Source of the DNA: Gemmatimonadota bacterium
GTDB taxonomy: Bacteria; Gemmatimonadota; Gemmatimonadetes; Gemmatimonadales; GWC2-71-9
Reading direction: 5' to 3'
DNA length: 64,000 nucleotides
Assembly (NCBI GenBank): GCA_025350665.1
Contig: JANXXJ010000131.1
Location: 7,262 to 71,261, forward strand
Within the stretch, counting starts at the first letter, position 1, and the number at the start of each line of letters is the position of its first letter. The notes under the pieces were generated by a model. That model did no database searches. It was not told the DNA's origin and saw nothing but the letters and a program-made list of their open reading frames with translations. The position numbers and the translations under genes are program-made. This document shows, one piece after another, positions 30,664 to 43,276 of this stretch.

Positions 30664-30781
30664 GCCCGACCCCGGTAATGGATCGGCCCAAGCTAGCCGC
30701 CGGTCCGATGGGTCGCCAGCGCAGCCGTAGGTGACGGGCCGTTTCCGGGCTATTTTTCATCCTCCTGCAACCGACGCTGGC

Positions 30782-32335
30782 ATGGCCGACCCCAGACGGC
30801 TGGGCATTCTCCTCGTCCGACCTGAGATCGTCGCACCTGATCTGCTTCGGCAGCAGGCCGCCGAGGCCTTGGTGGACCTGACCATCGAGGTAGTCGGATC
30901 GATCGCCGACGCCGCGGCCAGGGCGGCCCTGGCCGGCCCCGACGCCGTCGTCATCGGCGGGCCCGTCACGGTCGCCGAGGTGGCGCGGTTTCCAGCCCGC
31001 CTGCCCGTCTTCGTCGTGGCCGAGGTGACGGCGGCGGAAGAAAACGCGTTGATCCTCACCGGCGCGGCCGGCGTTTTTGCCCCAGGCCGGCTCTCCCGGC
31101 TCCCGACCGCGCTGGCCAGGGAATCGACCATCGCGGTGGAGCACGCGAGTCTGCTCCAGGCCGAGACCGACCGGACCCGGCTGCTGGCTCAGCTGGTCCA
31201 TGCCCAGAAGATGGAAGCGATCGGTACGTTGGCCGGAGGCCTCGCCCACGACCTCAACAACGTGCTCATGGGGATTCTCGGCAATGCGGAAATGGCGGCG
31301 GAGGACGTTGGAAGCAGCCACCCCGCCCAGGGCAATCTCGCCGACGTGATCCGCGCCGCGAATCGGGCCCGCGACGTGGTGCAGCGAGTCCTGACCTTCA
31401 GCCGGAAACGGGAACCAGCCCGCCGGAGCGACCAGCTGCCGCAGGTGGTCGACGACGCCGTGGTCCTGCTCCGCGCGACCCTGCCGGCCACGATCGAACT
31501 CGTGGTCCGCCACGAGCCCGATCCGCCGCCGGTGTCGATCGACGCCAACCAGATCAATCAGGTCATTACCAACCTGGCCACCAACGCCAGAGACGCGATT
31601 GGGAGCCGCCCCGGCACCATCACCATCTCGTCCGCGGTGATCGACGTGGACCGCACCCTGGCCCGGACTCATGTGAACCTTGCCGTGCGCCGCTACGTTC
31701 GGCTCTCGGTCGCCGACGACGGTCCGGGCATCGCCCCGGATATCCTGCCGCGAGTGTTCGAACCGTTCTTCACCACCAAAGCACCCGGAGCCGGTACCGG
31801 GCTTGGCCTGGCGGTAGCGCACGGCATCATCGAGGAGCATGACGGGGCCATCACCATGGAGTCCACGATGGGGCGTGGAACAACGGTGCGCCTCTACCTG
31901 CCCGCTCTCGAACCGGCCCGGACCAGCGACGACGCCGGGGCCGCCACGCCGCGAGGCGCCGGCGAAGCCGTCCTCCTCGTCGACGACGAAGCGATGGTCG
32001 TCCGGATTGGCGTCCGCATGCTCGAGCGTCTTGGCTATCGGGTGACCGCCGCCGACAGTGCAGCCGCGGCGCTCGAGCTCTTCCGGGCCGAGCCGTCCCG
32101 GTTCCAGGTCGTCATTTCCGATCTCACCATGCCCGGGCATACCGGTCTCGACCTCGCCCGCCGATTCCGGGCCCTGAATCCCCAGATCAAGTTCATCTTG
32201 ACCACCGGCCATCTGGGGGCGGAACAGCATGCCCTGCCCGATACCGACGCGCTGCTCACCAAGCCATTCGCGGCCTCCCGTCTGGCGCAGGTCCTGAACG
32301 AAGTCCTGCACCCGCATGAGAGCATCACCTCGTGA
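30782..32335 (+). CDS. cytoplasmic hybrid sensor histidine kinase (pseudo-receiver-like N-domain, HisKA, HATPase_c, C-terminal receiver)
   Basis: H-box LAGGLAHDLNNVLMGILGNAEM. ATPase boxes NLATNARDA, VADDGPGI and GTGLGLAVAHGI. Receiver VLLVDDE...VISDLTMPG...LTTGH...KPF. The start is either ATG 30782 or GTG 30731. Confidence 0.85.
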   Translation: MADPRRLGILLVRPEIVAPDLLRQQAAEALVDLTIEVVGSIADAAARAALAGPDAVVIGGPVTVAEVARFPARLPVFVVAEVTAAEENALILTGAAGVFAPGRLSRLPTALARESTIAVEHASLLQAETDRTRLLAQLVHAQKMEAIGTLAGGLAHDLNNVLMGILGNAEMAAEDVGSSHPAQGNLADVIRAANRARDVVQRVLTFSRKREPARRSDQLPQVVDDAVVLLRATLPATIELVVRHEPDPPPVSIDANQINQVITNLATNARDAIGSRPGTITISSAVIDVDRTLARTHVNLAVRRYVRLSVADDGPGIAPDILPRVFEPFFTTKAPGAGTGLGLAVAHGIIEEHDGAITMESTMGRGTTVRLYLPALEPARTSDDAGAATPRGAGEAVLLVDDEAMVVRIGVRMLERLGYRVTAADSAAAALELFRAEPSRFQVVISDLTMPGHTGLDLARRFRALNPQIKFILTTGHLGAEQHALPDTDALLTKPFAASRLAQVLNEVLHPHESITS

Positions 32336-36680: not shown

Positions 36681-36880
36681 CGACATGAGAATATTCACAA
36701 TACGACGTCGTTTACATTTGTTATATTGCTCAAATATATACAGTTACATGACTTTAACTAGCGATTTCAATGTTAGGAGTCTTAAACGCAACGTCGACTG
36801 AATATTTGTCGAATCAATTTAACATAATATCACGTTTCGTCTTCGATTTGCGCCAACCAGAAAAAACAAGCCCAAGATAT
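36681..36880 (+). promoter_or_regulatory. AT-rich island with palindromes and sigma70-like promoter (TTTACA-N18-TATATA at 36711-36740)
   Basis: I hand-counted 69 G/C in 200 nt. Palindromes are GAATATTC (36689-36696) and ACGACGTCGT (36702-36711). A partner arm lies at 36789-36807. The island sits directly upstream of the 36950 gene. Confidence 0.45.
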
Positions 36881-36949
36881 GCAATGCCTCGTCACGATGA
36901 CTCGCGCCCGCATATCGGGCTGCCCGGGATCAGCCAAGGATTTCTGAAG

Positions 36950-39874
36950 ATGGCGCAAGAGGCACGAACCGAAACGGCACCCCCCACCCCCTCCAAATCG
37001 GAGGCGAAGCGCCCGGCGAACCTCCGGCGCCGATTCCAGTTGCGGACCCTGCGCGACCGGCTGGTGGCCGCCGTAGTCGTTACCGGCGTGACGATCGCCC
37101 TCGGAGCGGCCTTCTTGCTCGGTCGCGCCGCGCTCGCCGTTCGTGATCTGGAACGCAACCAGTACGCTGGCATGGCTTCCGAAACCCGGATGCGCCTCGA
37201 TCGGCTGGTCAACCGCGATCGCTCGCGGTTGATCGAAGCCGCCTACTCGGACCAGCTCTACGCCCAAGTCGGTCGTGGCATCGCGCCTCCCGACTCCATG
37301 ATCCACCCGCCATTCGGCAATCAATTCCCCTCCCAGTTCGGAGACCGGTTCATCGCCGTCTACGACCTCGCCGGAAAGGCCCTGTACCGATGGACCGATG
37401 AGTCCCTGCCCGACGTCGAACACCTCGTCACCGGCAACGCCCTCTTTCGAATGCTCGACAATCGAGAGCCCACCATCGGCCTGGTCCGCAACGGCGAGGA
37501 GCTCTATTGGGTCGGGGGTGTCCCCGTCCTGCCGACCAATTTTACCGATCAGACCCAGCCGATTCGCGGCTATCTCGTCGTCGCCCAACGCTTCAATCCC
37601 GCCACGCTGGCCCCTGGCACCGGTGACCGCTCGGCTCGCTTCGAACTGGCTCCGCTCGCCAACTTGAAAACGCCGTTTCAGACCCGCGTCGACGCGGCTG
37701 GCAGTCGTGATAGTGTGCGCGTCACGTTCTCGCTCCCGGACGTCTTTGCTCAGCAAACGACGCTCGCCACGCTCACCACGGGCCGGGCCGAGTACCGAAC
37801 GATCGAATCGACCCTGCGCTGGCTGATGCTTGCGGCCGTGATCGGTGCTGCCGGGATCGCCGGCGGCCTGTTCGTCGCCGCCAGACGCTTCCTCGTCGAG
37901 CCGGTTTCTCGTCTGTCGGCGGCCATGGTCCCGTCCCAGAACAATCCATTCCCGTCGCTGATCGGTTCGGTCTCGACCGCCAAGGAATGGAACCGGCTGA
38001 CCGGCGCCATCAACCGGCTGTTGACCCACAGCCGAGGCAGTCAGGATCGGCTTGACCGCCTGACCGGGGTCACGGCGGACGGAGCGTTCGAACGGGACCT
38101 GAGCACCGGTGACTGGACCGTCAGTCCTCGATTCCGTCAAATGCTCGGCCTGGCAGGACCAGAGCCACTGCCTGCCGTCCTCGGCGAAAAACTCGCCCCG
38201 GACGAATCGATGAATGAGTTGATGGCCTGGCTCCAGGCGGAGTCCCCTGAGCCACGTTCGTTCGCGCGGACGATCATTCGCCGAGCCGGAGGCGAGCCCC
38301 TCCGGTTCGAAGCCACGGTCGGTACGGACACAGCCGGCGTACCCAACCGCATCACGGGACGGATCTCCGATCCAGGCGCGGAAGTCGCCTTGCAGGACAC
38401 GCTGGCCAAGGCTTCGGCCGAACGCGACGCCGGACGGGCTGCCCAGGGCCGCTTCCTCGCCGCGATCGCCGAATCGTGGGCCGCTAGGCCCACGCCACCC
38501 GCCGAAACCATCGAGCACCTCCGAACGATCGGCGCCGGGCTCGAAGGGACGCTCGCCGCCAAGGCCGAGGAATTCGACCTGTACGCGCTGCTCCAGGAGC
38601 TCGCGAACCTTGAGCCCGGCGCCGACCTGCGGATCGTACCGGGAGTTCCCGAGCAGGTCGCAGGCGATCGCCGGCTGCTGCGGTCAGCGATCCTGGCCTT
38701 CCTGGGCACCGCCGACCGAAGCACCCGGGCGGTCTTGCGAGCCGATCAGCCAAACCGACTCGCACCCGACCGCGTTCGAATTGCGGTCGAGGACCATCGG
38801 GTCATCCCGGTCGCTGAGGCGGCGGTGATCAGCCGCACCCTCGAGACCGGCGACGCCGGGGGGACGGATCCGCAGCTCGACTGGCGTGCCGTCCACTTCC
38901 TGGCCCAAGCCCTCGGTGGGACGGCCGCACTGACCATCGATGGCGACCTCGCGACCCGATCGCTCACGGTCCTTCTGCCTGAGGTGGCAGCAGCAGCGCC
39001 CGCTGCGCCGGAAACGGTCGACCCGGTAGCCGATCCCGTGTTGTGGGCCAGCGACAACGCCGACGCCACCTTTCAAGAACCGTCCCAGGGGTCCGATCGG
39101 CCGTCGCGGGCGGAACCCGTCATCCAACTGGTCGCCGACGCCACCGTCACGATCGATTTCGATCGCGACATGACCGTTGACGACGTCGCCATCGGCGCTC
39201 AATTCGCCGGCGACCTCGCAAAGGGAACGGATGACGCGGTCCGAACCGCCAGGATCGCTTTGGCCGAGATCCCGGCCCGTCTGCGCCAGCTGCGCGGCGG
39301 CGTCCAGGCGGGGGAAGCCCGCACCGCCATCGAGAACGCCATCGCCATCGAGCGCGTCGGTGTGCTCCTCGGCGCGACCGAACTGACGCATCGATGCCGC
39401 GATCTGATCGACGCTGCCGAGCACTCCTACCTCGACACGGCGGAGCAACTGCTGACAGGCCTCGACCAGGCCTGGAGTCGAACCGGTGATGCACTCGGCC
39501 CGATGTTCGCGTCGCCCGCGCCGGAATCGCCGGCCATTGACCCGGCCACGCTCGAACAATTGATGGCGTCGCTCGGCGAAGGCGCGCTCGGTACTCAGCT
39601 CGTCACGTTGTTCGTCGGCGAGGCCCCGGAACGAATCGAAGCCATCGGGCGCGCGGCGGCCGCAGGCAATCTGGTTGAAGTCGGCACCCTCGCCGAAGAC
39701 CTGAAGGGGATGTGTGGGCTCGTCGGCGCACTGCCGATGGCACGCCAGTGCGATCTGACCCGGTTGGCGAACGGCACCGGTGCTGTCGTCACCGCGGTCG
39801 GGGCCTTACGACACGAATGGGAACGAGTCCAGCGGGTACTGGATCAACTTACGAGCGCCCGGATTGGCGCCTGA
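36950..39874 (+). CDS. membrane sensor with degenerate histidine-kinase core (TM, CHASE4-like periplasmic domain, TM, HAMP-like, PAS, His-less DHp, degenerate HATPase, two His-less Hpt-like bundles)
   Basis: The start is ATG 36950, or alternatively 36884. The 36770 ATG lies in AT-rich sequence with atypical codons. TM1 is VAAVVVTGVTIALGAAFLLG. The periplasmic block ..IAVYDLAGKALY..ELYWVGGVPVLP..IRGYLVVAQRF is CHASE4-like. TM2 is LMLAAVIGAAGIAGGLFVAA. The PAS-like block is GAFERDLSTGDWTVSPRFRQMLGL. The H-box position reads GRFLAAIAESWAARPTP, with no His. Confidence 0.75.
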   Translation: MAQEARTETAPPTPSKSEAKRPANLRRRFQLRTLRDRLVAAVVVTGVTIALGAAFLLGRAALAVRDLERNQYAGMASETRMRLDRLVNRDRSRLIEAAYSDQLYAQVGRGIAPPDSMIHPPFGNQFPSQFGDRFIAVYDLAGKALYRWTDESLPDVEHLVTGNALFRMLDNREPTIGLVRNGEELYWVGGVPVLPTNFTDQTQPIRGYLVVAQRFNPATLAPGTGDRSARFELAPLANLKTPFQTRVDAAGSRDSVRVTFSLPDVFAQQTTLATLTTGRAEYRTIESTLRWLMLAAVIGAAGIAGGLFVAARRFLVEPVSRLSAAMVPSQNNPFPSLIGSVSTAKEWNRLTGAINRLLTHSRGSQDRLDRLTGVTADGAFERDLSTGDWTVSPRFRQMLGLAGPEPLPAVLGEKLAPDESMNELMAWLQAESPEPRSFARTIIRRAGGEPLRFEATVGTDTAGVPNRITGRISDPGAEVALQDTLAKASAERDAGRAAQGRFLAAIAESWAARPTPPAETIEHLRTIGAGLEGTLAAKAEEFDLYALLQELANLEPGADLRIVPGVPEQVAGDRRLLRSAILAFLGTADRSTRAVLRADQPNRLAPDRVRIAVEDHRVIPVAEAAVISRTLETGDAGGTDPQLDWRAVHFLAQALGGTAALTIDGDLATRSLTVLLPEVAAAAPAAPETVDPVADPVLWASDNADATFQEPSQGSDRPSRAEPVIQLVADATVTIDFDRDMTVDDVAIGAQFAGDLAKGTDDAVRTARIALAEIPARLRQLRGGVQAGEARTAIENAIAIERVGVLLGATELTHRCRDLIDAAEHSYLDTAEQLLTGLDQAWSRTGDALGPMFASPAPESPAIDPATLEQLMASLGEGALGTQLVTLFVGEAPERIEAIGRAAAAGNLVEVGTLAEDLKGMCGLVGALPMARQCDLTRLANGTGAVVTAVGALRHEWERVQRVLDQLTSARIGA

Positions 39875-39888
39875 CGGAAGCAACCACC

Positions 39889-42800
39889 ATGACTGACATC
39901 GAACGCGACTCGAAGCAGGCGACCCCCCGTCCGGGATCGACCCCGCAACGACCCGGAGTGAACGACTACCTGCTGGCGATGGGCCACGAGCTCCGGGCGC
40001 CGCTCAACGGCGTCATCGGCATGTCCGGACTCTTGCTGGACGGGGATCTGACGGCGCAGCAGCGGCAGTACGTCAAGAGCGTTCATTCCGCCGGCGAGAG
40101 CCTTGGCGCGATTCTCAACGACATCCTTGATCTGGCCCGGGTCGCTTCCTCCCGCCTGATCGTCGAGCCAATCCCCTATGATCTCAAATCGATGATCGAG
40201 GAAACCGCGAGCGTCCTGACCCCGCGAGCCGGCGAACGCGGTCTCGGCCTCCGCGTCGATCTCCGGCCCGAACTGCCCCGGCACGTGATCGGCGACCCGG
40301 GCCGGACCCGCCAAGTGCTCGGCAACCTCGTGGGCCACGCGGTCAACGCCACGAGTCAAGGTGAGATCGTCATCCGGGTCATGGCCGACGGCGAGAGTGG
40401 CGAGCACGCCTGGGTTCGATTCGTCGTCGAAGACACCGGCATCGGAATGTCCGCCGAGCGGTTGCAGCGGGTGTTCGATGAGTACGTCCAGGTCGATGCA
40501 TCGCCGTACCGATCGTTCGGCGTCACCGGCCTCGGGCTCCGCCTCTCGGCCGAACTGGTCCGCCTGATGGGCGGCGAGATCGGCGCCGAGAGTACGCCTG
40601 GAAAGGGCAGTCGGTTCTGGTTCACCCTTCCGCTCGTGGTCGCGGAACCGGCCGGCGGCCAGGCGCTTTCAAGTCGGAATCTGCTTCAGGGAGGGCGGGC
40701 CCTCATCGTCGAGGCCGATCCGGCCAGCCGGTCGCGCTTCGTTGAGCAATTCGACGCGGCCGACTGGGACGTCGCGTTTGTCGAGGATATCGACCGGGTG
40801 GTCGGCGAATTGCGCGAAGGCGCGGCCATCGGCAACCCGTACAACGCCTGCGTATTCTCGCACTACGCCGTCCGGCCGGTCCACGCGGAGATCGCGACCC
40901 GGCTCAAGGCCGACCCCGCGCTCGCGAAGGTCGCGCTGGTCATGATCACGGCGGTGGGCAGCCCGGGCGAAGGCAAGAAACTCTGGCATGCCGGGTTCAC
41001 GGCCTATCTTCGTCGCCCGGTTCCCGGTGAAGAAATCCGCGAGGCGCTTCAAGTCATCGAACGATCTGGACCCGATGGACGGGTGGACAACCTGGTGACC
41101 CGGCACTCACTCGCCGAGGCCCGGAACGCCCAGTCATTCGCGGTCGAAGGTATCGATCAGATGCTCGCCAGCCTCGGAACAGCGGAAGGCACCCGCCGGA
41201 CGCTCGTGATCCCGATCGCCGAACTCGGCACCGTATCCGAGCTGTTTGACCAGCGCGGGCTCGCGGCCGACACGGCGACGACGCTCGACCATGCACTCGC
41301 CCTGCTTGGTCAAGGCCGTTACGAATGCATCGTCCTCGACGTGAGGGGGCGGGCCGACCTGATCGGCGACGTGAAGTCGATTCGGGAGCGCCTGGCCGCG
41401 CAGGGCACGATCCCGATCGTCGCCGTTGCCGACGCCACGACCGACATCAACGCCCTGATCGGCATCGGCCTGGATGAGGTGTGGACCGCGCCGGTGGACG
41501 CCGAGCAGATTGACCGGGCACTGGCCCGCTGGCAGGAGGGCGGTCCGTCCCTTGAGATCGTCGCAGCCCCAGCAACCGAAACCGTGGAACCAGCCGTGGT
41601 CGCTGAGTCGGCGACGACAGTGGAACCGCCCGTCGAAGAACCTGCGTTGGTCGAGAGCCCGGTCGTGGCGGCGATCATCGAGCCACCGGTGCCGGAACCG
41701 GCAGCAGTGATCGAGAGCTGGCCGGCCGAAGCGGCCGCCGCCAAAGCCGCCCCCCGGTGGTTCACCGAAGTGCCGTTGTTCGCCGCGCCCGCGGCGGCGA
41801 CCCGGTCGCCGGACCCGGTCGCCGTGGTCGAGGCCCCCGCGCCTGTGGCGCCTGAGTGGGAGACGGTCGCCGCGGCGGAGCTGCCGGCGCTCACCCTGCC
41901 GGTGATCGAAGCACCGATCGTGGAGGCCATCGTGTTCGGGGCTCCCGCGGTGGAAGCAGCGGAGACGTCTCCCGTACCAACGGACGCGGCGCCGACGCCG
42001 CTCGACGGTCTGACGGACGCACAATGGGAGGCGCACGTCCCGGTTGCCGCCATCGATGGATTCCTCGCGACCGAGACGGACCAGATGTCCCCAGTCGCGG
42101 ACGCGATTATCGAAACGGTCGATGTCGCTCCGCCGGAAATCGTCCCAGGCGAGGCTCCAACTCCCGACGCCATCGTCGAGGCGATCGCCCTCGACTCGAT
42201 GATACCGATGGCGATCCCGGGCGAGCTGGCGGCCGATCTCGTGCCGCCCGCCGTGGACCCGGCCGAGCCGGCCATGGCACCAATCATCCTGCTGCAACCG
42301 GCGGCGGTCTTTGAGCCGGTGGCCGGGGTGGCGAACCCGGAGCCCGAACCGGTGGAGGTCACCCTTCTGGCCCCCGTCGAGGAGCCGGCCGTCGTGCCGG
42401 CCCTCAGTCAGGATCTCACAGCCTCAGGCGAGGCCGAGCTTGGTTTGACCGGCAACGAGCCTTCGGTTGAACCCAGGTCGGGACCTGCCGCACCGGCCGC
42501 GGAGCCGGACGCGTCGCTCGATGCCGTCAGCCCGGCGCTGCTCGAGCAGGCGCTTGCCGGCGGCGGGTTCTTCACCCAGTACCAGATCGCCAGTTTTTTG
42601 CGGGAAGTGCCATCGCGAATCACGGACATCGCGACGGCGGCCACCCGGGGCGACGGGGGCCGGGTCACGGAGCAGCTCACCCGCCTCCGACGCCTCGTGG
42701 CAGCCGTCGGCGCGACCCGGATCGACGCGGTCGCCGCACGCATGGAGGCTCTGGTGGCGGGTGAGCAGCTCGAAGCCGCGACGGCCCTGCTGGGTGGGAT

Positions 42801-43215
42801 CGAGCACGCCTTCCTCGACGCCCGCCAAGCCCTGGAATTGGCCTCACCGCACGGCCTGCCGACCGACGCGCCGGCGATTGGGATCAGTTTTGCCGAGCAG
42901 CTCTCGCCCGCAAAGGAGGGCGCTGCTCGCTCGCTGGCGCAGAAATTGGCCGCATCGTTCACCGCCGACGCGCCGAAACGACTTGCGGACCTGCGGCTCG
43001 CGGTCGCCGATGCGGATAGTGACGGGGTTCAGCGGGTGGCCCAGACCTTCAAGGGGATGTGCGGCTTGATCGGCGCCGAGTGGCTCGCCAAGCTGGTGGC
43101 GCTGGCCGAGGCGGATGCGCGGCTCAAGCGTGTCACCCACGCCGAACGGTATCTCGAGCACATCGACCTCGAGCTCGGGCGGGTACTCACGATGCTCGAA
43201 CGTCTCCAGGCCTGA
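39889..43215 (+). CDS. soluble histidine kinase (N-terminal HisKA and HATPase_c) with two degenerate receiver-like domains, a long P/E/V/A-rich linker and two His-less Hpt-like bundles
   Basis: ATG 39889, 14 nt after the upstream stop. The H-box is LLAMGHELRAPLNGVIGMSGLL. ATPase boxes are LGNLVGHAVNAT, VEDTGIGM and GLGLRLSAELVRLMGGEI. No TM or sensor domain precedes the H-box. Confidence 0.8.
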   Translation: MTDIERDSKQATPRPGSTPQRPGVNDYLLAMGHELRAPLNGVIGMSGLLLDGDLTAQQRQYVKSVHSAGESLGAILNDILDLARVASSRLIVEPIPYDLKSMIEETASVLTPRAGERGLGLRVDLRPELPRHVIGDPGRTRQVLGNLVGHAVNATSQGEIVIRVMADGESGEHAWVRFVVEDTGIGMSAERLQRVFDEYVQVDASPYRSFGVTGLGLRLSAELVRLMGGEIGAESTPGKGSRFWFTLPLVVAEPAGGQALSSRNLLQGGRALIVEADPASRSRFVEQFDAADWDVAFVEDIDRVVGELREGAAIGNPYNACVFSHYAVRPVHAEIATRLKADPALAKVALVMITAVGSPGEGKKLWHAGFTAYLRRPVPGEEIREALQVIERSGPDGRVDNLVTRHSLAEARNAQSFAVEGIDQMLASLGTAEGTRRTLVIPIAELGTVSELFDQRGLAADTATTLDHALALLGQGRYECIVLDVRGRADLIGDVKSIRERLAAQGTIPIVAVADATTDINALIGIGLDEVWTAPVDAEQIDRALARWQEGGPSLEIVAAPATETVEPAVVAESATTVEPPVEEPALVESPVVAAIIEPPVPEPAAVIESWPAEAAAAKAAPRWFTEVPLFAAPAAATRSPDPVAVVEAPAPVAPEWETVAAAELPALTLPVIEAPIVEAIVFGAPAVEAAETSPVPTDAAPTPLDGLTDAQWEAHVPVAAIDGFLATETDQMSPVADAIIETVDVAPPEIVPGEAPTPDAIVEAIALDSMIPMAIPGELAADLVPPAVDPAEPAMAPIILLQPAAVFEPVAGVANPEPEPVEVTLLAPVEEPAVVPALSQDLTASGEAELGLTGNEPSVEPRSGPAAPAAEPDASLDAVSPALLEQALAGGGFFTQYQIASFLREVPSRITDIATAATRGDGGRVTEQLTRLRRLVAAVGATRIDAVAARMEALVAGEQLEAATALLGGIEHAFLDARQALELASPHGLPTDAPAIGISFAEQLSPAKEGAARSLAQKLAASFTADAPKRLADLRLAVADADSDGVQRVAQTFKGMCGLIGAEWLAKLVALAEADARLKRVTHAERYLEHIDLELGRVLTMLERLQA

Positions 43216-43239: not shown

Positions 43240-43276
43240 AACGGGGCGGCCGCGCGGGCCGCCCCGTTGTCTTTCC
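43240..43276 (+). terminator. candidate rho-independent terminator
   Basis: AACGGGGCGGCC-gcgcg-GGCCGCCCCGTT forms a perfect 12-bp stem with a 5-nt loop. It is followed by GTCTTTCC, 25 nt after the stop at 43215. Confidence 0.6.

What the first reader, a model, noticed from the sequence alone, without database searches (positions are those of the whole stretch)
39150..43215. Four Hpt-like four-helix bundles across the two proteins, none with the phospho-accepting histidine
The canonical Hpt core is a-H-x-L-K-G-s-a-a-x-l-G-A. The four domains read as follows:

| Protein | Bundle | Sequence | Residue at the His position | Approx. nt |
|---|---|---|---|---|
| Gene 1 | first | AIAIERVGVLLGATEL | Ile | ~39340-39390 |
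| Gene 1 | second | TLAEDLKGMCGLVGALPMA | Glu | 39691-39730 |
| Gene 2 | first | EQLTRLRRLVAAVGATRI | Thr | ~42670-42720 |
| Gene 2 | second | RVAQTFKGMCGLIGAEWLA | Gln | 43036-43077 |

The surrounding helices fit the Hpt pattern (..F..EAPERIEAIGRAAAAGNLVEV.. and ..F.ADAPKRLADLRLAVADADSDGVQRV..).

His-less Hpt relatives are known. Arabidopsis AHP6 is a pseudo-HPt inhibitor, and P. aeruginosa ChpA carries Ser- and Thr-containing Xpt domains. I am not aware of a bacterial pair in which every Hpt is His-less. They may act as docking or scaffold modules, or as decoys. The Thr variant may be an alternative acceptor.
Basis: partly seen in the sequence, partly recalled or inferred. Interest (0 to 1): 0.7.

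Follow-up and report, generated by a model that had tools for sequence, protein, structure and literature searches.

The report
Four histidine-less Hpt domains, degenerate phosphorelay
Two adjacent, co-conserved signalling genes of a Gemmatimonadota bacterium each end in two phosphotransfer (Hpt) domains that have lost the phosphate-carrying histidine, and most other catalytic residues of the relay are also lost or dispensable, yet the proteins are under strong purifying selection, so they probably signal by binding rather than by passing phosphate.

Summary
All four segments are Hpt domains. HHalign against a canonical Hpt profile gives 97.5-99.2% probability. Three of the four pass Pfam's threshold. 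The AlphaFold models (pLDDT 92-97) hit only solved Hpt structures.

This is not strain decay. About 65 orthologues, all from Gemmatimonadota, keep the gene pair adjacent. Neither C-terminal bundle ever carries His at the acceptor position (16 gene 1 and 50 gene 2 proteins). dN/dS on the tandems is 0.07-0.23. There is no conserved substitute His. The Thr is not conserved (4 of 50), so an alternative acceptor is unlikely.

The degeneracy goes beyond Hpt.
- Gene 1 (CHASE4-TM-PAS) has no H-box His and a RetS-like dead ATPase domain.
- In gene 2 the Mg-binding N-box Asn is His/Tyr/Gln in 51 of 51, and the H-box phosphatase Thr is Ala.
- Gene 2's DHp His is lost in 11 of 51.
- The receiver-1 Asp is His here, and receiver 2 lacks Thr and Lys.

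Best reading: a phosphorelay architecture converted to largely phosphate-independent signalling, with the paralogous tandem pseudo-Hpt units acting as docking modules. The mechanism is inferred, not shown. It is a new variant of known pseudo-two-component proteins (AHP6, RetS, DivL, RcsD).

The parts
36950..39874 (+). Gene 1: membrane sensor pseudo-kinase (974 aa from M61 of the ORF that opens at 36770). Order of parts: TM1, CHASE4, TM2, PAS, pseudo-DHp, pseudo-CA, pseudo-Hpt, pseudo-Hpt.
   Evidence: ORF. A 100%-identical 974-aa protein, P0001, plus 15 orthologues. Pfam CHASE4 and Hpt. The family profile hits PAS 3mr0, the RetS CA domain 6dk8 and Hpt 7c1i.
37238..37609 (+). CHASE4 periplasmic sensor domain of gene 1, flanked by hydrophobic segments at 37061-37135 and 37814-37894.
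   Evidence: Pfam PF05228, 33.4 bits, ORF residues 157-280. The hydrophobic stretches were read directly from the sequence.
38045..38377 (+). PAS domain of gene 1.
   Evidence: The family profile matches PAS domain 3mr0 at E=1.3e-16. PAS_3 is precomputed or found in orthologues.
38378..38986 (+). Degenerate kinase core of gene 1. The DHp-like segment has no conserved His. The CA-like domain has no N, G1 or G2 boxes.
   Evidence: No HisKA or HATPase_c hit in the window protein. The family profile aligns to the degenerate CA domain of RetS at E=5e-9. Deeper-branching relatives still score HATPase_c. No His column is visible in the alignment.
39242..39502 (+). Gene 1 pseudo-Hpt bundle 1. Ile858 (39341-39343) sits at the phospho-His position.
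   Evidence: HHalign 97.5% to the canonical Hpt profile. Colinear with gene 2 bundle 1. Four helices in the AF2 model. Not detected by Pfam. Two orthologues (P0014, P0016) lack this bundle entirely.
39533..39871 (+). Gene 1 pseudo-Hpt bundle 2. Glu976 (39695-39697) sits at the phospho-His position, followed by the motif D-L-K-G-M-C-G-L-V-G-A.
   Evidence: Pfam Hpt 37.4 bits. HHalign 98.1%. D, L, K, G and G-A are invariant and M-C is nearly invariant, while the His column reads E/D/A/G/T/N/S in 16 sequences.
39889..43215 (+). Gene 2: soluble hybrid-kinase-like protein (1108 aa). Order of parts: DHp, CA, REC1, REC2, long linker, pseudo-Hpt, pseudo-Hpt.
   Evidence: ORF and start. Pfam HisKA 56.6 bits, HATPase_c 86.5 bits, Hpt 51.8 bits, Response_reg 24.9 bits (below threshold). 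50 orthologues with a sharp score break (587 bits or more versus 336 or less).
39958..40641 (+). DHp and CA core of gene 2.
- His33 is present (39985-39987), but the H-box reads HELRA, with no phosphatase Thr.
- The N-box reads GNLVGHAVNAT: His150 (40336-40338) replaces the Mg-binding Asn, and Asn replaces Lys.
- The G1 and G2 boxes are intact.
   Evidence: Alignments to four solved kinases place His150 opposite the NA-Asn (7z8n, 7p8e, 6qrj, 6dk8). Family tallies are H43/Y7/Q1 at that site and DHp His in 40 of 51.
40693..41061 (+). REC1 pseudo-receiver. His325 (40861-40863) is at the acceptor Asp position and Arg376 (41014-41016) at the conserved Lys position.
   Evidence: Alignment to receiver 6xvu_A puts h opposite d, and r opposite k. 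The family reads D24/H26/N1 and K41/R10.
41194..41535 (+). REC2, a degenerate receiver. Asp484 is kept but the conserved Thr and Lys are missing. It is present only in part of the family.
   Evidence: Pfam Response_reg 24.9 bits, below the 30.2 cut-off. Alignments to 7lz9, 7qz2 and 6qrj. Absent from many orthologues.
41536..42525 (+). 330-aa linker rich in Ala, Pro, Glu and Val, of variable length.
   Evidence: Composition A73, P55, E41, V40 of 330 residues. It aligns poorly and its length varies across orthologues. No tandem DNA repeat of note.
42526..42846 (+). Gene 2 pseudo-Hpt bundle 1. Thr931 (42679-42681) sits at the phospho-His position.
   Evidence: Pfam Hpt 27.5 bits. HHalign 99.2%. 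AF2 pLDDT above 94.
42877..43212 (+). Gene 2 pseudo-Hpt bundle 2. Gln1052 (43042-43044) sits at the phospho-His position, within the motif AQTFKGMCGLIGAE.
   Evidence: Pfam Hpt 41.1 bits. HHalign 99.2%. Aligns to HptB 7c1i. The family reads Q43/P6/R1 and never His.

Best explanation
The two genes form a conserved bicistronic unit, specific to Gemmatimonadota, that descends from a sensor kinase/phosphorelay but no longer depends on passing phosphate down the relay.

Gene 1 is a membrane sensor: a periplasmic CHASE4 domain, then PAS, with a dead kinase core. Gene 2 is a soluble hybrid-kinase-like protein. Both end in the same paralogous tandem of two Hpt four-helix bundles that cannot accept phosphate on the canonical site.

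The proposed mechanism is inferred, not shown. The tandem pseudo-Hpt units keep the Hpt surface that normally docks a receiver domain; the Lys-Gly after the missing His is conserved in both C-terminal bundles. They would act as phosphate-independent docking or partner-switch modules, coupling the ligand state of gene 1 to the conformation or associations of gene 2. One possibility is that gene 1's tandem competes with gene 2's own tandem for gene 2's (pseudo-)receiver. This resembles how the pseudo-HPt AHP6, RetS and DivL act by binding rather than by catalysis.

Shown: domain identities, missing residues, conservation, purifying selection and gene linkage. Inferred: loss of kinase activity, the docking function, the partners and the output.
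For: - All four bundles are Hpt, and the acceptor column reads I, E, T, Q.
- The acceptor columns are free to vary while the neighbouring motifs are fixed. Gene 1 bundle 2 reads x-DLKGMCGLVGA with x = E/D/A/G/T/N/S. Gene 2 bundle 2 reads Q43/P6/R1.
- No alternative His column exceeds 56%, and none lies at the active site.
- dN/dS is 0.07-0.23 on the tandems and 0.06-0.11 on the kinase-like core.
- The gene 1 and gene 2 tandems are colinear paralogues: 29% identity over 206 aa, E=3e-11.
- The gene 2 tandem is predicted as one rigid unit, pTM 0.90.
- The pair is adjacent, 17-65 nt apart, in all 12 species-level genome loci and in 3 further loci. All are Gemmatimonadota.
- Other catalytic residues are missing. 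The gene 2 N-box Asn is replaced in 51 of 51. The H-box reads HELRA. The DHp His was lost in 11 of 51, with five different replacement residues in scattered members. REC1 has Asp to His and Lys to Arg here. REC2 lacks Thr and Lys.
- Gene 1 has no HisKA match, and its CA domain matches the degenerate RetS CA.
- A neighbouring hybrid kinase in the same window keeps every canonical residue, so the losses are specific to this pair.
- Precedents for binding-only two-component relatives: RetS (PMC5992135), DivL (PMC12471899), AHP6 (PMC5853337).
Against: - No interaction was tested and no output domain or partner was identified. The neighbouring genes are unrelated housekeeping genes.
- Gene 2 in this window keeps the DHp His, as do 40 of 51 orthologues. 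It has intact G1 and G2 boxes, and its CA domain is the most conserved part of the protein (76% mean pairwise identity). It may therefore still bind ATP and autophosphorylate, with His150 substituting for Asn.
- Half of the family keeps the REC1 Asp, Thr and Lys, so some phosphochemistry may persist in relatives.
- Six orthologues (P0026, P0027, P0029-P0032) and two deeper relatives (P0150, P0153) do carry His at an acceptor column.
- Retention of Lys-Gly could reflect helix packing rather than receiver docking.
Confidence: 0.55

Rival explanations
1. Gene 2 is still a working histidine kinase that phosphorylates an unlinked response regulator directly from His33. The four His-less Hpt bundles and the dead receivers are only regulatory or autoinhibitory appendages, and gene 1 is its sensor partner.
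For: Strong HisKA and HATPase_c matches. His33 is present here and in 40 of 51 orthologues, and G1 and G2 are intact in 43 and 51 of 51. The CA domain is the most conserved region. The closest solved relatives are active GacS-type cores.
Against: The Mg-binding N-box Asn is His/Tyr/Gln in every member, and the adjacent Lys is Asn. The acceptor His was lost in 11 of 51 orthologues, replaced by five different residues in scattered members, which is hard to reconcile with an essential autophosphorylation site. The phosphatase Thr of HExxT is Ala. No response regulator is linked.
Confidence: 0.25
2. The bundles are AHP6-like decoys. They bind the phosphorylated receiver of a true relay elsewhere and block or read it. 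A candidate is the intact hybrid kinase without Hpt about 4.6 kb upstream, at 30731-32335.
For: All four bundles are His-less, and the Lys-Gly of the docking helix is conserved in both C-terminal bundles. AHP6 is a precedent. The upstream kinase is intact, lacks an Hpt domain of its own and is syntenic in two other genomes.
Against: The synteny covers a long block of unrelated housekeeping genes, so it probably reflects shared ancestry and not function. A decoy does not explain why the bundles are fused to a 900-residue sensor and a kinase-like protein. Nothing was tested.
Confidence: 0.13
3. The bundles transfer phosphate on a non-His acceptor (Thr931, Glu976 or another residue), as proposed for the Ser/Thr 'Xpt' domains of ChpA.
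For: ChpA is described as carrying Hpt, Spt and Tpt domains (PMC10896506). Thr occupies the site in gene 2 bundle 1 of this window.
Against: The Thr is present in 4 of 50 orthologues. The gene 1 sites vary among seven or more residue types. The only conserved occupant, Gln in 43 of 50, cannot be phosphorylated. There is no conserved substitute His. The upstream donors (receiver Asp residues) are themselves degenerate.
Confidence: 0.04
4. Recent decay: the genes are pseudogenes or relaxed remnants in this strain.
For: Many catalytic residues are missing at once.
Against: The reading frames are intact at about 1000 codons each. dN/dS is 0.06-0.23. The same His-less state is found in about 65 orthologues across at least 12 species-level genomes. 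Motifs next to the lost residues are invariant.
Confidence: 0.02

Closest known systems
Arabidopsis AHP6 (pseudo-HPt)
   Same: An Hpt fold lacking the conserved His. [quoted passage not shown]
   Different: AHP6 is a free-standing single-domain plant protein that competes within an otherwise active relay. Here the four bundles are fused in tandem to two bacterial kinase-like proteins whose own relay residues are also degenerate. Full-text searches found pseudo-HPt described only in plants.
Pseudomonas aeruginosa ChpA Hpt/Spt/Tpt domains
   Same: A bacterial protein with several Hpt-fold domains, some with Ser or Thr in place of His (PMC10896506).
   Different: According to the literature as I recall it, most ChpA domains keep His and sit in an active CheA-type kinase. 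Here no bundle keeps His, and the replacing residue is not conserved, except Gln in gene 2 bundle 2.
RcsC/RcsD of enterobacteria
   Same: A two-protein arrangement in which a membrane protein with a His-less pseudo-kinase core and a C-terminal Hpt (RcsD/YojN) works with a hybrid kinase (RcsC). This is from my own knowledge. The YojN Hpt structure 1sr2 is among the fold hits.
   Different: The RcsD Hpt carries the functional His and relays phosphate to RcsB. Gene 1 has two Hpt bundles, neither with His. Gene 2 also carries two, and it lacks the N-box Asn.
RetS-GacS multikinase control in P. aeruginosa
   Same: [quoted passage not shown] It regulates another kinase partly by direct binding (PMC5992135). 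RetS is the best solved match to gene 1's CA-like domain and a top match to gene 2's core.
   Different: RetS keeps its H-box with the HExxT phosphatase motif and a phospho-accepting receiver Asp, and it has no Hpt domain. Here the H-box Thr is Ala, the receivers are degenerate and tandem pseudo-Hpt units are present.
DivL pseudokinase of Caulobacter
   Same: A kinase-fold protein without the acceptor His that signals by binding a two-component partner (DivK) to control CckA (review PMC12471899).
   Different: DivL uses its DHp-CA core as the binding module and has no Hpt. The binding role of the pseudo-Hpt tandems here is only inferred.

Membership tests
Hpt domain (Pfam PF01627) | Sequence-profile match to the family | tested here: met
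   Pfam scores of 37.4, 27.5 and 41.1 bits against a cut-off of 24.6 for three bundles. The fourth, gene 1 bundle 1, is missed by Pfam but matches a canonical Hpt profile by HHalign at 97.5%. The other three match at 98.1-99.2%.
Hpt domain (Pfam PF01627) | Four-helix-bundle Hpt fold | tested here: met
   AF2 models have pLDDT 97.1 and 91.8. Foldseek PDB top hits are HptB, Shewanella Hpt, BarA, ArcB, YojN, AHP1/2, Ypd1 and CheA P1, with target TM-scores up to 0.86. The Foldseek E-values are weak (0.006 or worse), as is usual for small helical bundles. The output does not show which bundle of each tandem was matched.
Hpt domain (Pfam PF01627) | Phospho-accepting His in the a-H-x-x-K-G motif | tested here: not met
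   The residues are I858, E976, T931 and Q1052. Neither C-terminal bundle ever has His in 16 and 50 family sequences. By contrast, 159 of 176 stretches in unrelated Hpt proteins have His at the same column.
Hpt domain (Pfam PF01627) | Lys and Gly at +3 and +4 from the His (phosphotransfer and receiver-docking helix) | tested here: inconclusive
   Kept in both C-terminal bundles: DLKG is invariant, and TFKG has K in 50 of 50 and G in 48 of 50. Lost in both N-terminal bundles: Glu-Arg (E861, R862) in gene 1 and Arg-Arg (R934, R935) in gene 2.
Active HisKA-type histidine kinase (gene 2) | H-box acceptor His | tested here: met
   His33 lies in LLAMGHELRAPLN. However, only 40 of 51 orthologues keep it.
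Active HisKA-type histidine kinase (gene 2) | N-box Asn that binds Mg-ATP (N-L-x-x-N-A-x-K) | tested here: not met
   GNLVGHAVNAT: His150 aligns to the NA-Asn of four solved kinases, and Asn replaces the Lys. The family reads H43/Y7/Q1.
Active HisKA-type histidine kinase (gene 2) | G1 (DxGxG) and G2 (GxGLGL) boxes | tested here: met
   EDTGIGM and GVTGLGL are present. The second Gly of G1 is lost in 8 orthologues.
Active HisKA-type histidine kinase (gene 2) | ATP-dependent autophosphorylation | not testable with these tools
   Requires biochemistry.
Receiver domain, phospho-accepting (gene 2 REC1 and REC2) | Acceptor Asp plus conserved Thr/Ser and Lys | tested here: not met
   REC1 has His325 for Asp and Arg376 for Lys, with Thr kept. 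REC2 keeps Asp484 but Thr and Lys are absent, and Pfam scores it 24.9 bits, below the 30.2 cut-off.
Pseudo-HPt of the AHP6 type | Hpt fold without His that still binds receivers and inhibits a relay | not testable with these tools
   The fold and the missing His are shown. Receiver binding and inhibition need experiments or complex modelling.
RcsD-like phosphotransfer protein (gene 1) | Pseudo-kinase core followed by a functional, His-bearing Hpt | tested here: not met
   The pseudo-kinase core is present, but both Hpt bundles lack His.

The most novel reading that the evidence does not exclude
A complete multi-step phosphorelay architecture (sensor, DHp-CA, two receivers, four Hpt) has been converted as a whole into a phosphate-free allosteric or partner-switch device. 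This has been maintained across an order of bacteria. The tandem pseudo-Hpt units would serve as a new kind of dedicated receiver-binding (reader or docking) module shared by both partners.
Probability: 0.3. Interest if true: 0.75.

Novelty: new variant of a known kind. Interest (0 to 1): 0.6.

Why it matters
Pseudo-kinases, pseudo-receivers and one plant pseudo-HPt show that two-component folds can be reused as binding modules. In the papers I could search, His-less Hpt domains are described only for plants, apart from a passing mention of the Ser/Thr (Spt/Tpt) domains of ChpA.

Here there is a clean natural case:
- about 40 sequence clusters (at 50% identity) in Gemmatimonadota;
- every Hpt of a conserved two-gene unit is His-less;
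- the acceptor column drifts freely while the flanking helix is frozen;
- most other phosphoryl-handling residues are lost or dispensable.

If binding is confirmed, this would define what an Hpt surface does when freed from chemistry. It would give a sequence signature (x-[DT]-[LF]-K-G-M-C-G-L-[IV]-G-A) for annotating such domains, which are currently labelled simply 'Hpt domain-containing' or 'ATP-binding protein'. It would also caution against inferring phosphorelays from domain architecture alone.

Tried and rejected
- Single-sequence phmmer of gene 1 bundle 2 against PDB gave only chance hits. The family profile and HHalign were needed.
- Pfam does not see gene 1 bundle 1. It was accepted as Hpt only through HHalign and its colinearity with gene 2.
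- A special redox or metal role for the conserved Cys residues (KGMCG and the following helix) was considered and dropped. Cys or small residues occur at the same positions in canonical His-bearing Hpt domains, for example HTLKGSCGLLGA and MAEICARLE.
- A conserved substitute His was looked for and not found.
- A linked response regulator or output gene was looked for. The neighbours are DUF2911, a sortilin/BNR protein, an amidase, a DNA-alkylation repair protein and a methyltransferase, in a long syntenic block.
- The linker was checked for tandem repeats and has none of note.
Taxonomy rests on the orthologous MAGs.
- Literature searches for bacterial pseudo-HPt or degenerate Hpt returned only plant papers and general two-component reviews.
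- The promoter scan found nothing. One weak terminator-like hairpin follows gene 2.
- The list of 42 representatives at E<=1e-30 includes five unrelated multi-Hpt proteins with canonical His (P0147, P0157, P0158, P0161, P0162), whose scores sum over several domains. They are not family members.

Full report
**1. What is there**

The region holds two long same-strand ORFs.

Gene 1 opens at 36770, but all orthologues start at its Met61 (nt 36950). A 100%-identical 974-aa protein is on record. It ends with TGA at 39872-39874.

Gene 2 most likely starts at ATG 39889, 14 nt later, and ends at 43215. A weak terminator-like hairpin follows at 43254, and none lies between the genes.

Whole-protein Pfam results:
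- Gene 1: CHASE4 plus one Hpt.
- Gene 2: HisKA, HATPase_c, a sub-threshold Response_reg, and Hpt with two stretches.

**2. Are the four segments Hpt domains, and what sits at the His position?**

Scanned one by one, gene 1 bundle 2, gene 2 bundle 1 and gene 2 bundle 2 pass Pfam's Hpt threshold: 37.4, 27.5 and 41.1 bits against a cut-off of 24.6. Gene 1 bundle 1 is not detected.

I built a canonical Hpt alignment from 32 unrelated hybrid kinases that carry H-x-x-K-G. I then compared family alignments of each bundle with it by HHalign. All four match, at 97.5, 98.1, 99.2 and 99.2% probability.

The residue opposite the canonical His is Ile858, Glu976, Thr931 and Gln1052. The solved HptB chain 7c1i aligns AHSFKG to AQTFKG of gene 2.

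AlphaFold2 models built from the family alignments are confident:
- Gene 2 tandem: pLDDT 97.1, pTM 0.90.
- Gene 1 tandem: pLDDT 91.8, pTM 0.56.

Their best Foldseek matches in the PDB are Hpt proteins throughout: HptB at TM 0.86 and rmsd 2.1 A, then Shewanella Hpt, BarA, ArcB, YojN, AHP1/2, Ypd1, ShpA and CheA P1. The E-values are modest, as is usual for small helical bundles.

The two tandems are colinear paralogues, 29% identical over 206 residues with E=3e-11. This also ties gene 1 bundle 1 to the Hpt family.

**3. Strain-specific decay, or a family trait?**

Gene 1 has 15 orthologues at 37-80% identity. Gene 2 has 50, separated from ordinary hybrid kinases by a sharp score break: 587 bits or more versus 336 or less. 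All named sources are Gemmatimonadota or Gemmatimonadales.

A scan of one genome per species found 12 loci, all Gemmatimonadota MAGs. In every locus long enough to judge, gene 2 begins 17-65 nt after gene 1.

The acceptor columns across the families read as follows:

| Bundle | Residues at the His column | Flanking motif | Source |
|---|---|---|---|
| Gene 1 bundle 2 (16 seqs) | E1, D2, A2, G4, T3, N3, S1 | DLKG and G-A invariant; M-C nearly invariant | |
| Gene 2 bundle 2 (50 seqs) | Q43, P6, R1 | K 50/50, G 48/50 | |
| Gene 2 bundle 1 (50 seqs) | A11, H6, G6, Q5, T4, S4, R4, D3, K3, L2, E2 | variable | |
| Gene 1 bundle 1 | I/V/E/Q/L/G | variable | |

No other column in either tandem has His in more than 56% of sequences.

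dN/dS between the window and its two closest relatives is 0.07-0.23 for the tandems, and 0.06-0.11 for the kinase-like core.

I searched 1.84 billion representative proteins with a profile of both tandems. It returned 42 proteins at E<=1e-30. Five of these are unrelated multi-Hpt proteins with canonical His. The rest carry the family signature without His.

Among lower-scoring, unrelated Hpt domains, 159 of 176 stretches have His at exactly that profile column. This validates the register.

There are exceptions inside the family:
- Six gene 2 orthologues (P0026, P0027, P0029-P0032) have His in bundle 1.
- Two deeper relatives have one His-bearing bundle each (P0150 in bundle 1, P0153 in bundle 2).

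So the loss is ancient, maintained and selected around. It is not decay. The Thr is not a conserved alternative acceptor.

**4. The degeneracy extends to the rest of the relay**

Gene 1:
- No HisKA match and no conserved His between the PAS domain and the CA-like domain.
- Its family profile matches a PAS domain (3mr0, E=1e-16). It also matches the CA domain of RetS (6dk8, E=5e-9), which is itself a degenerate ATPase, with none of the N, G1 or G2 motifs.
- Deeper-branching relatives still score HATPase_c and share the CHASE4-PAS-CA-Hpt-Hpt order.

Gene 2 kinase core:
- The N-box reads QVLGNLVGHAVNAT. Four solved kinases align their Mg-binding Asn (N-A-x-K) to His150 and their Lys to Asn.
- The family reads H43/Y7/Q1 at that site, and never Asn.
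- The H-box reads HELRA, without the Thr of the HExxT phosphatase motif (motif as described in PMC5992135).
- The DHp His itself is replaced in 11 of 51 orthologues by A, P, Q, N or R, in scattered members. This suggests repeated loss.

Gene 2 receivers:
- REC1 aligns His325 to the acceptor Asp and Arg376 to the conserved Lys.
- About half of the family keeps the REC1 Asp, and most keep the Lys.
- REC2 is present only in some members. It keeps an Asp but lacks the Thr and Lys.

Gene 2 linker:
- A 330-residue linker rich in Ala, Pro, Glu and Val, of variable length, precedes the tandem.

A hybrid kinase about 4.6 kb upstream in the same window has every canonical residue. The losses are therefore specific to this pair and are not a compositional artefact.

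**5. How it most likely works**

Shown:
- A conserved two-gene unit.
- Four Hpt folds that cannot take phosphate on the canonical site.
- Free drift of the acceptor column next to frozen helices.
- Strong purifying selection.
- Loss or dispensability of the kinase Asn, the phosphatase Thr, the DHp His, and the receiver Asp and Lys.

Inferred: the pair signals mainly by conformational coupling and binding. The CHASE4 sensor (gene 1) would control the soluble protein (gene 2) through the shared tandem pseudo-Hpt units. These keep the Lys-Gly helix that normally faces a receiver. A partner switch, in which the two paralogous tandems compete for gene 2's receiver, is one concrete version.

I give this reading 0.55.

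**6. Rival readings**

- **Working kinase (0.25).** Gene 2 still works as a kinase towards an unlinked regulator. His33, G1 and G2 are present and the CA domain is the most conserved region, at 76% identity. The bundles would then be regulatory appendages.
- **AHP6-like decoy (0.13).** The bundles act on another relay, for example the upstream Hpt-less hybrid kinase.
- **Non-His phosphotransfer (0.04).**
- **Decay (0.02).**

**7. Comparison with known systems**

It works most like the known binding-only relatives of two-component proteins:
- AHP6, a His-less pseudo-HPt.
- RetS, with a degenerate ATPase, which controls GacS partly by binding.
- DivL, a pseudokinase that reads DivK.

The architecture of gene 1 plus gene 2 recalls RcsD plus RcsC. 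That comparison is from my own knowledge, and RcsD's Hpt is functional.

ChpA has Ser/Thr-type Hpt-fold domains next to His-bearing ones.

The four bundles belong to the Hpt fold and sequence family but fail its functional hallmark. Gene 2 fails the N-box test for an active kinase. The receivers fail the acceptor-pocket test.

Full-text searches found pseudo-HPt described only in plants. That is absence from the searchable literature, not proof of novelty.

**8. Verdict**

This is a new variant of a known kind: pseudo-two-component signalling proteins. It is notable for being complete (all four Hpt domains plus most other catalytic sites) and conserved at order level.

Interest is 0.6.

Noticed in passing
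window 40336-40338 (gene 2 His150): The Mg-ATP-binding Asn of the kinase N-box is His here and His/Tyr/Gln in all 51 family members. The adjacent conserved Lys is Asn. The G1 and G2 boxes and the rest of the CA domain are highly conserved (76% mean pairwise identity).
   Followed up: yes
window 40861-40863 and 41014-41016 (gene 2 REC1): The receiver acceptor Asp is replaced by His (H26/D24/N1 across the family), and the conserved Lys by Arg (R in 10 of 51). The D-to-H swap divides the family roughly in half.
   Followed up: yes
gene 2 orthologues P0024, P0028, P0029, P0032, P0033, P0050, P0054, P0056, P0062, P0065, P0067: The DHp phospho-accepting His is replaced by A, P, Q, N or R in 11 of 51 orthologues, apparently several independent times, although the surrounding H-box (ELRAPLN) stays conserved.
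   Followed up: partly
gene 2 orthologues P0026-P0033: One subclade has a degenerate G1 box (DTGVA/DTGAT). Six of its members (P0026, P0027, P0029-P0032) carry His at the acceptor column of bundle 1 (ESLHGLERTSDSIGA). Whether this is a retention or a reversion is not resolved.
   Followed up: partly
P0150 (998 aa) and P0153 (272 aa), from the representative search: These two deeper-branching relatives each have one bundle with His at the acceptor column (ALAHHLGGMAALVGA and ALAHDLRGICALLGA). They may be intermediates in the loss.
   Followed up: partly
window 41536-42525: A 330-residue linker rich in Ala, Pro, Glu and Val lies between REC2 and the tandem. Its length and sequence vary widely among orthologues. 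The long antisense ORFs listed at 41134-42362 are most likely by-products of this GC-rich, low-complexity stretch.
   Followed up: partly
window 30731-32335 (+): An intact hybrid histidine kinase (HisKA-HATPase_c-REC with canonical H, N, G1, G2, DD, D, T and K) that has no Hpt domain of its own. It is syntenic upstream of the pair in at least two other genomes (L001, L003). A functional link to the pseudo-Hpt pair is possible but unsupported.
   Followed up: partly
gene 1 orthologues P0014 and P0016 (alignment A1): These two gene 1 orthologues lack the first pseudo-Hpt bundle altogether but keep the second, so bundle 1 is dispensable in some lineages.
   Followed up: no
P0172, P0192, P0217, P0147 (unrelated multi-Hpt proteins): Several unrelated proteins carry an Hpt-like domain with Tyr at the His column (for example RFAYLIKGSAGQLGG) upstream of a canonical Hpt. 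This suggests other recurrent His-less Hpt variants exist in bacteria.
   Followed up: no
window 36770-36949: The gene 1 ORF extends 60 codons upstream of the start used by all orthologues and by the identical database protein. The upstream part is probably not translated.
   Followed up: yes
gene 2 residues about 396-440 (window about 41074-41208): A strongly conserved segment after REC1 (GR...LITRHSLAE.RNAQ.F...IDEMLASL, 60% mean pairwise identity) has no domain assignment.
   Followed up: no
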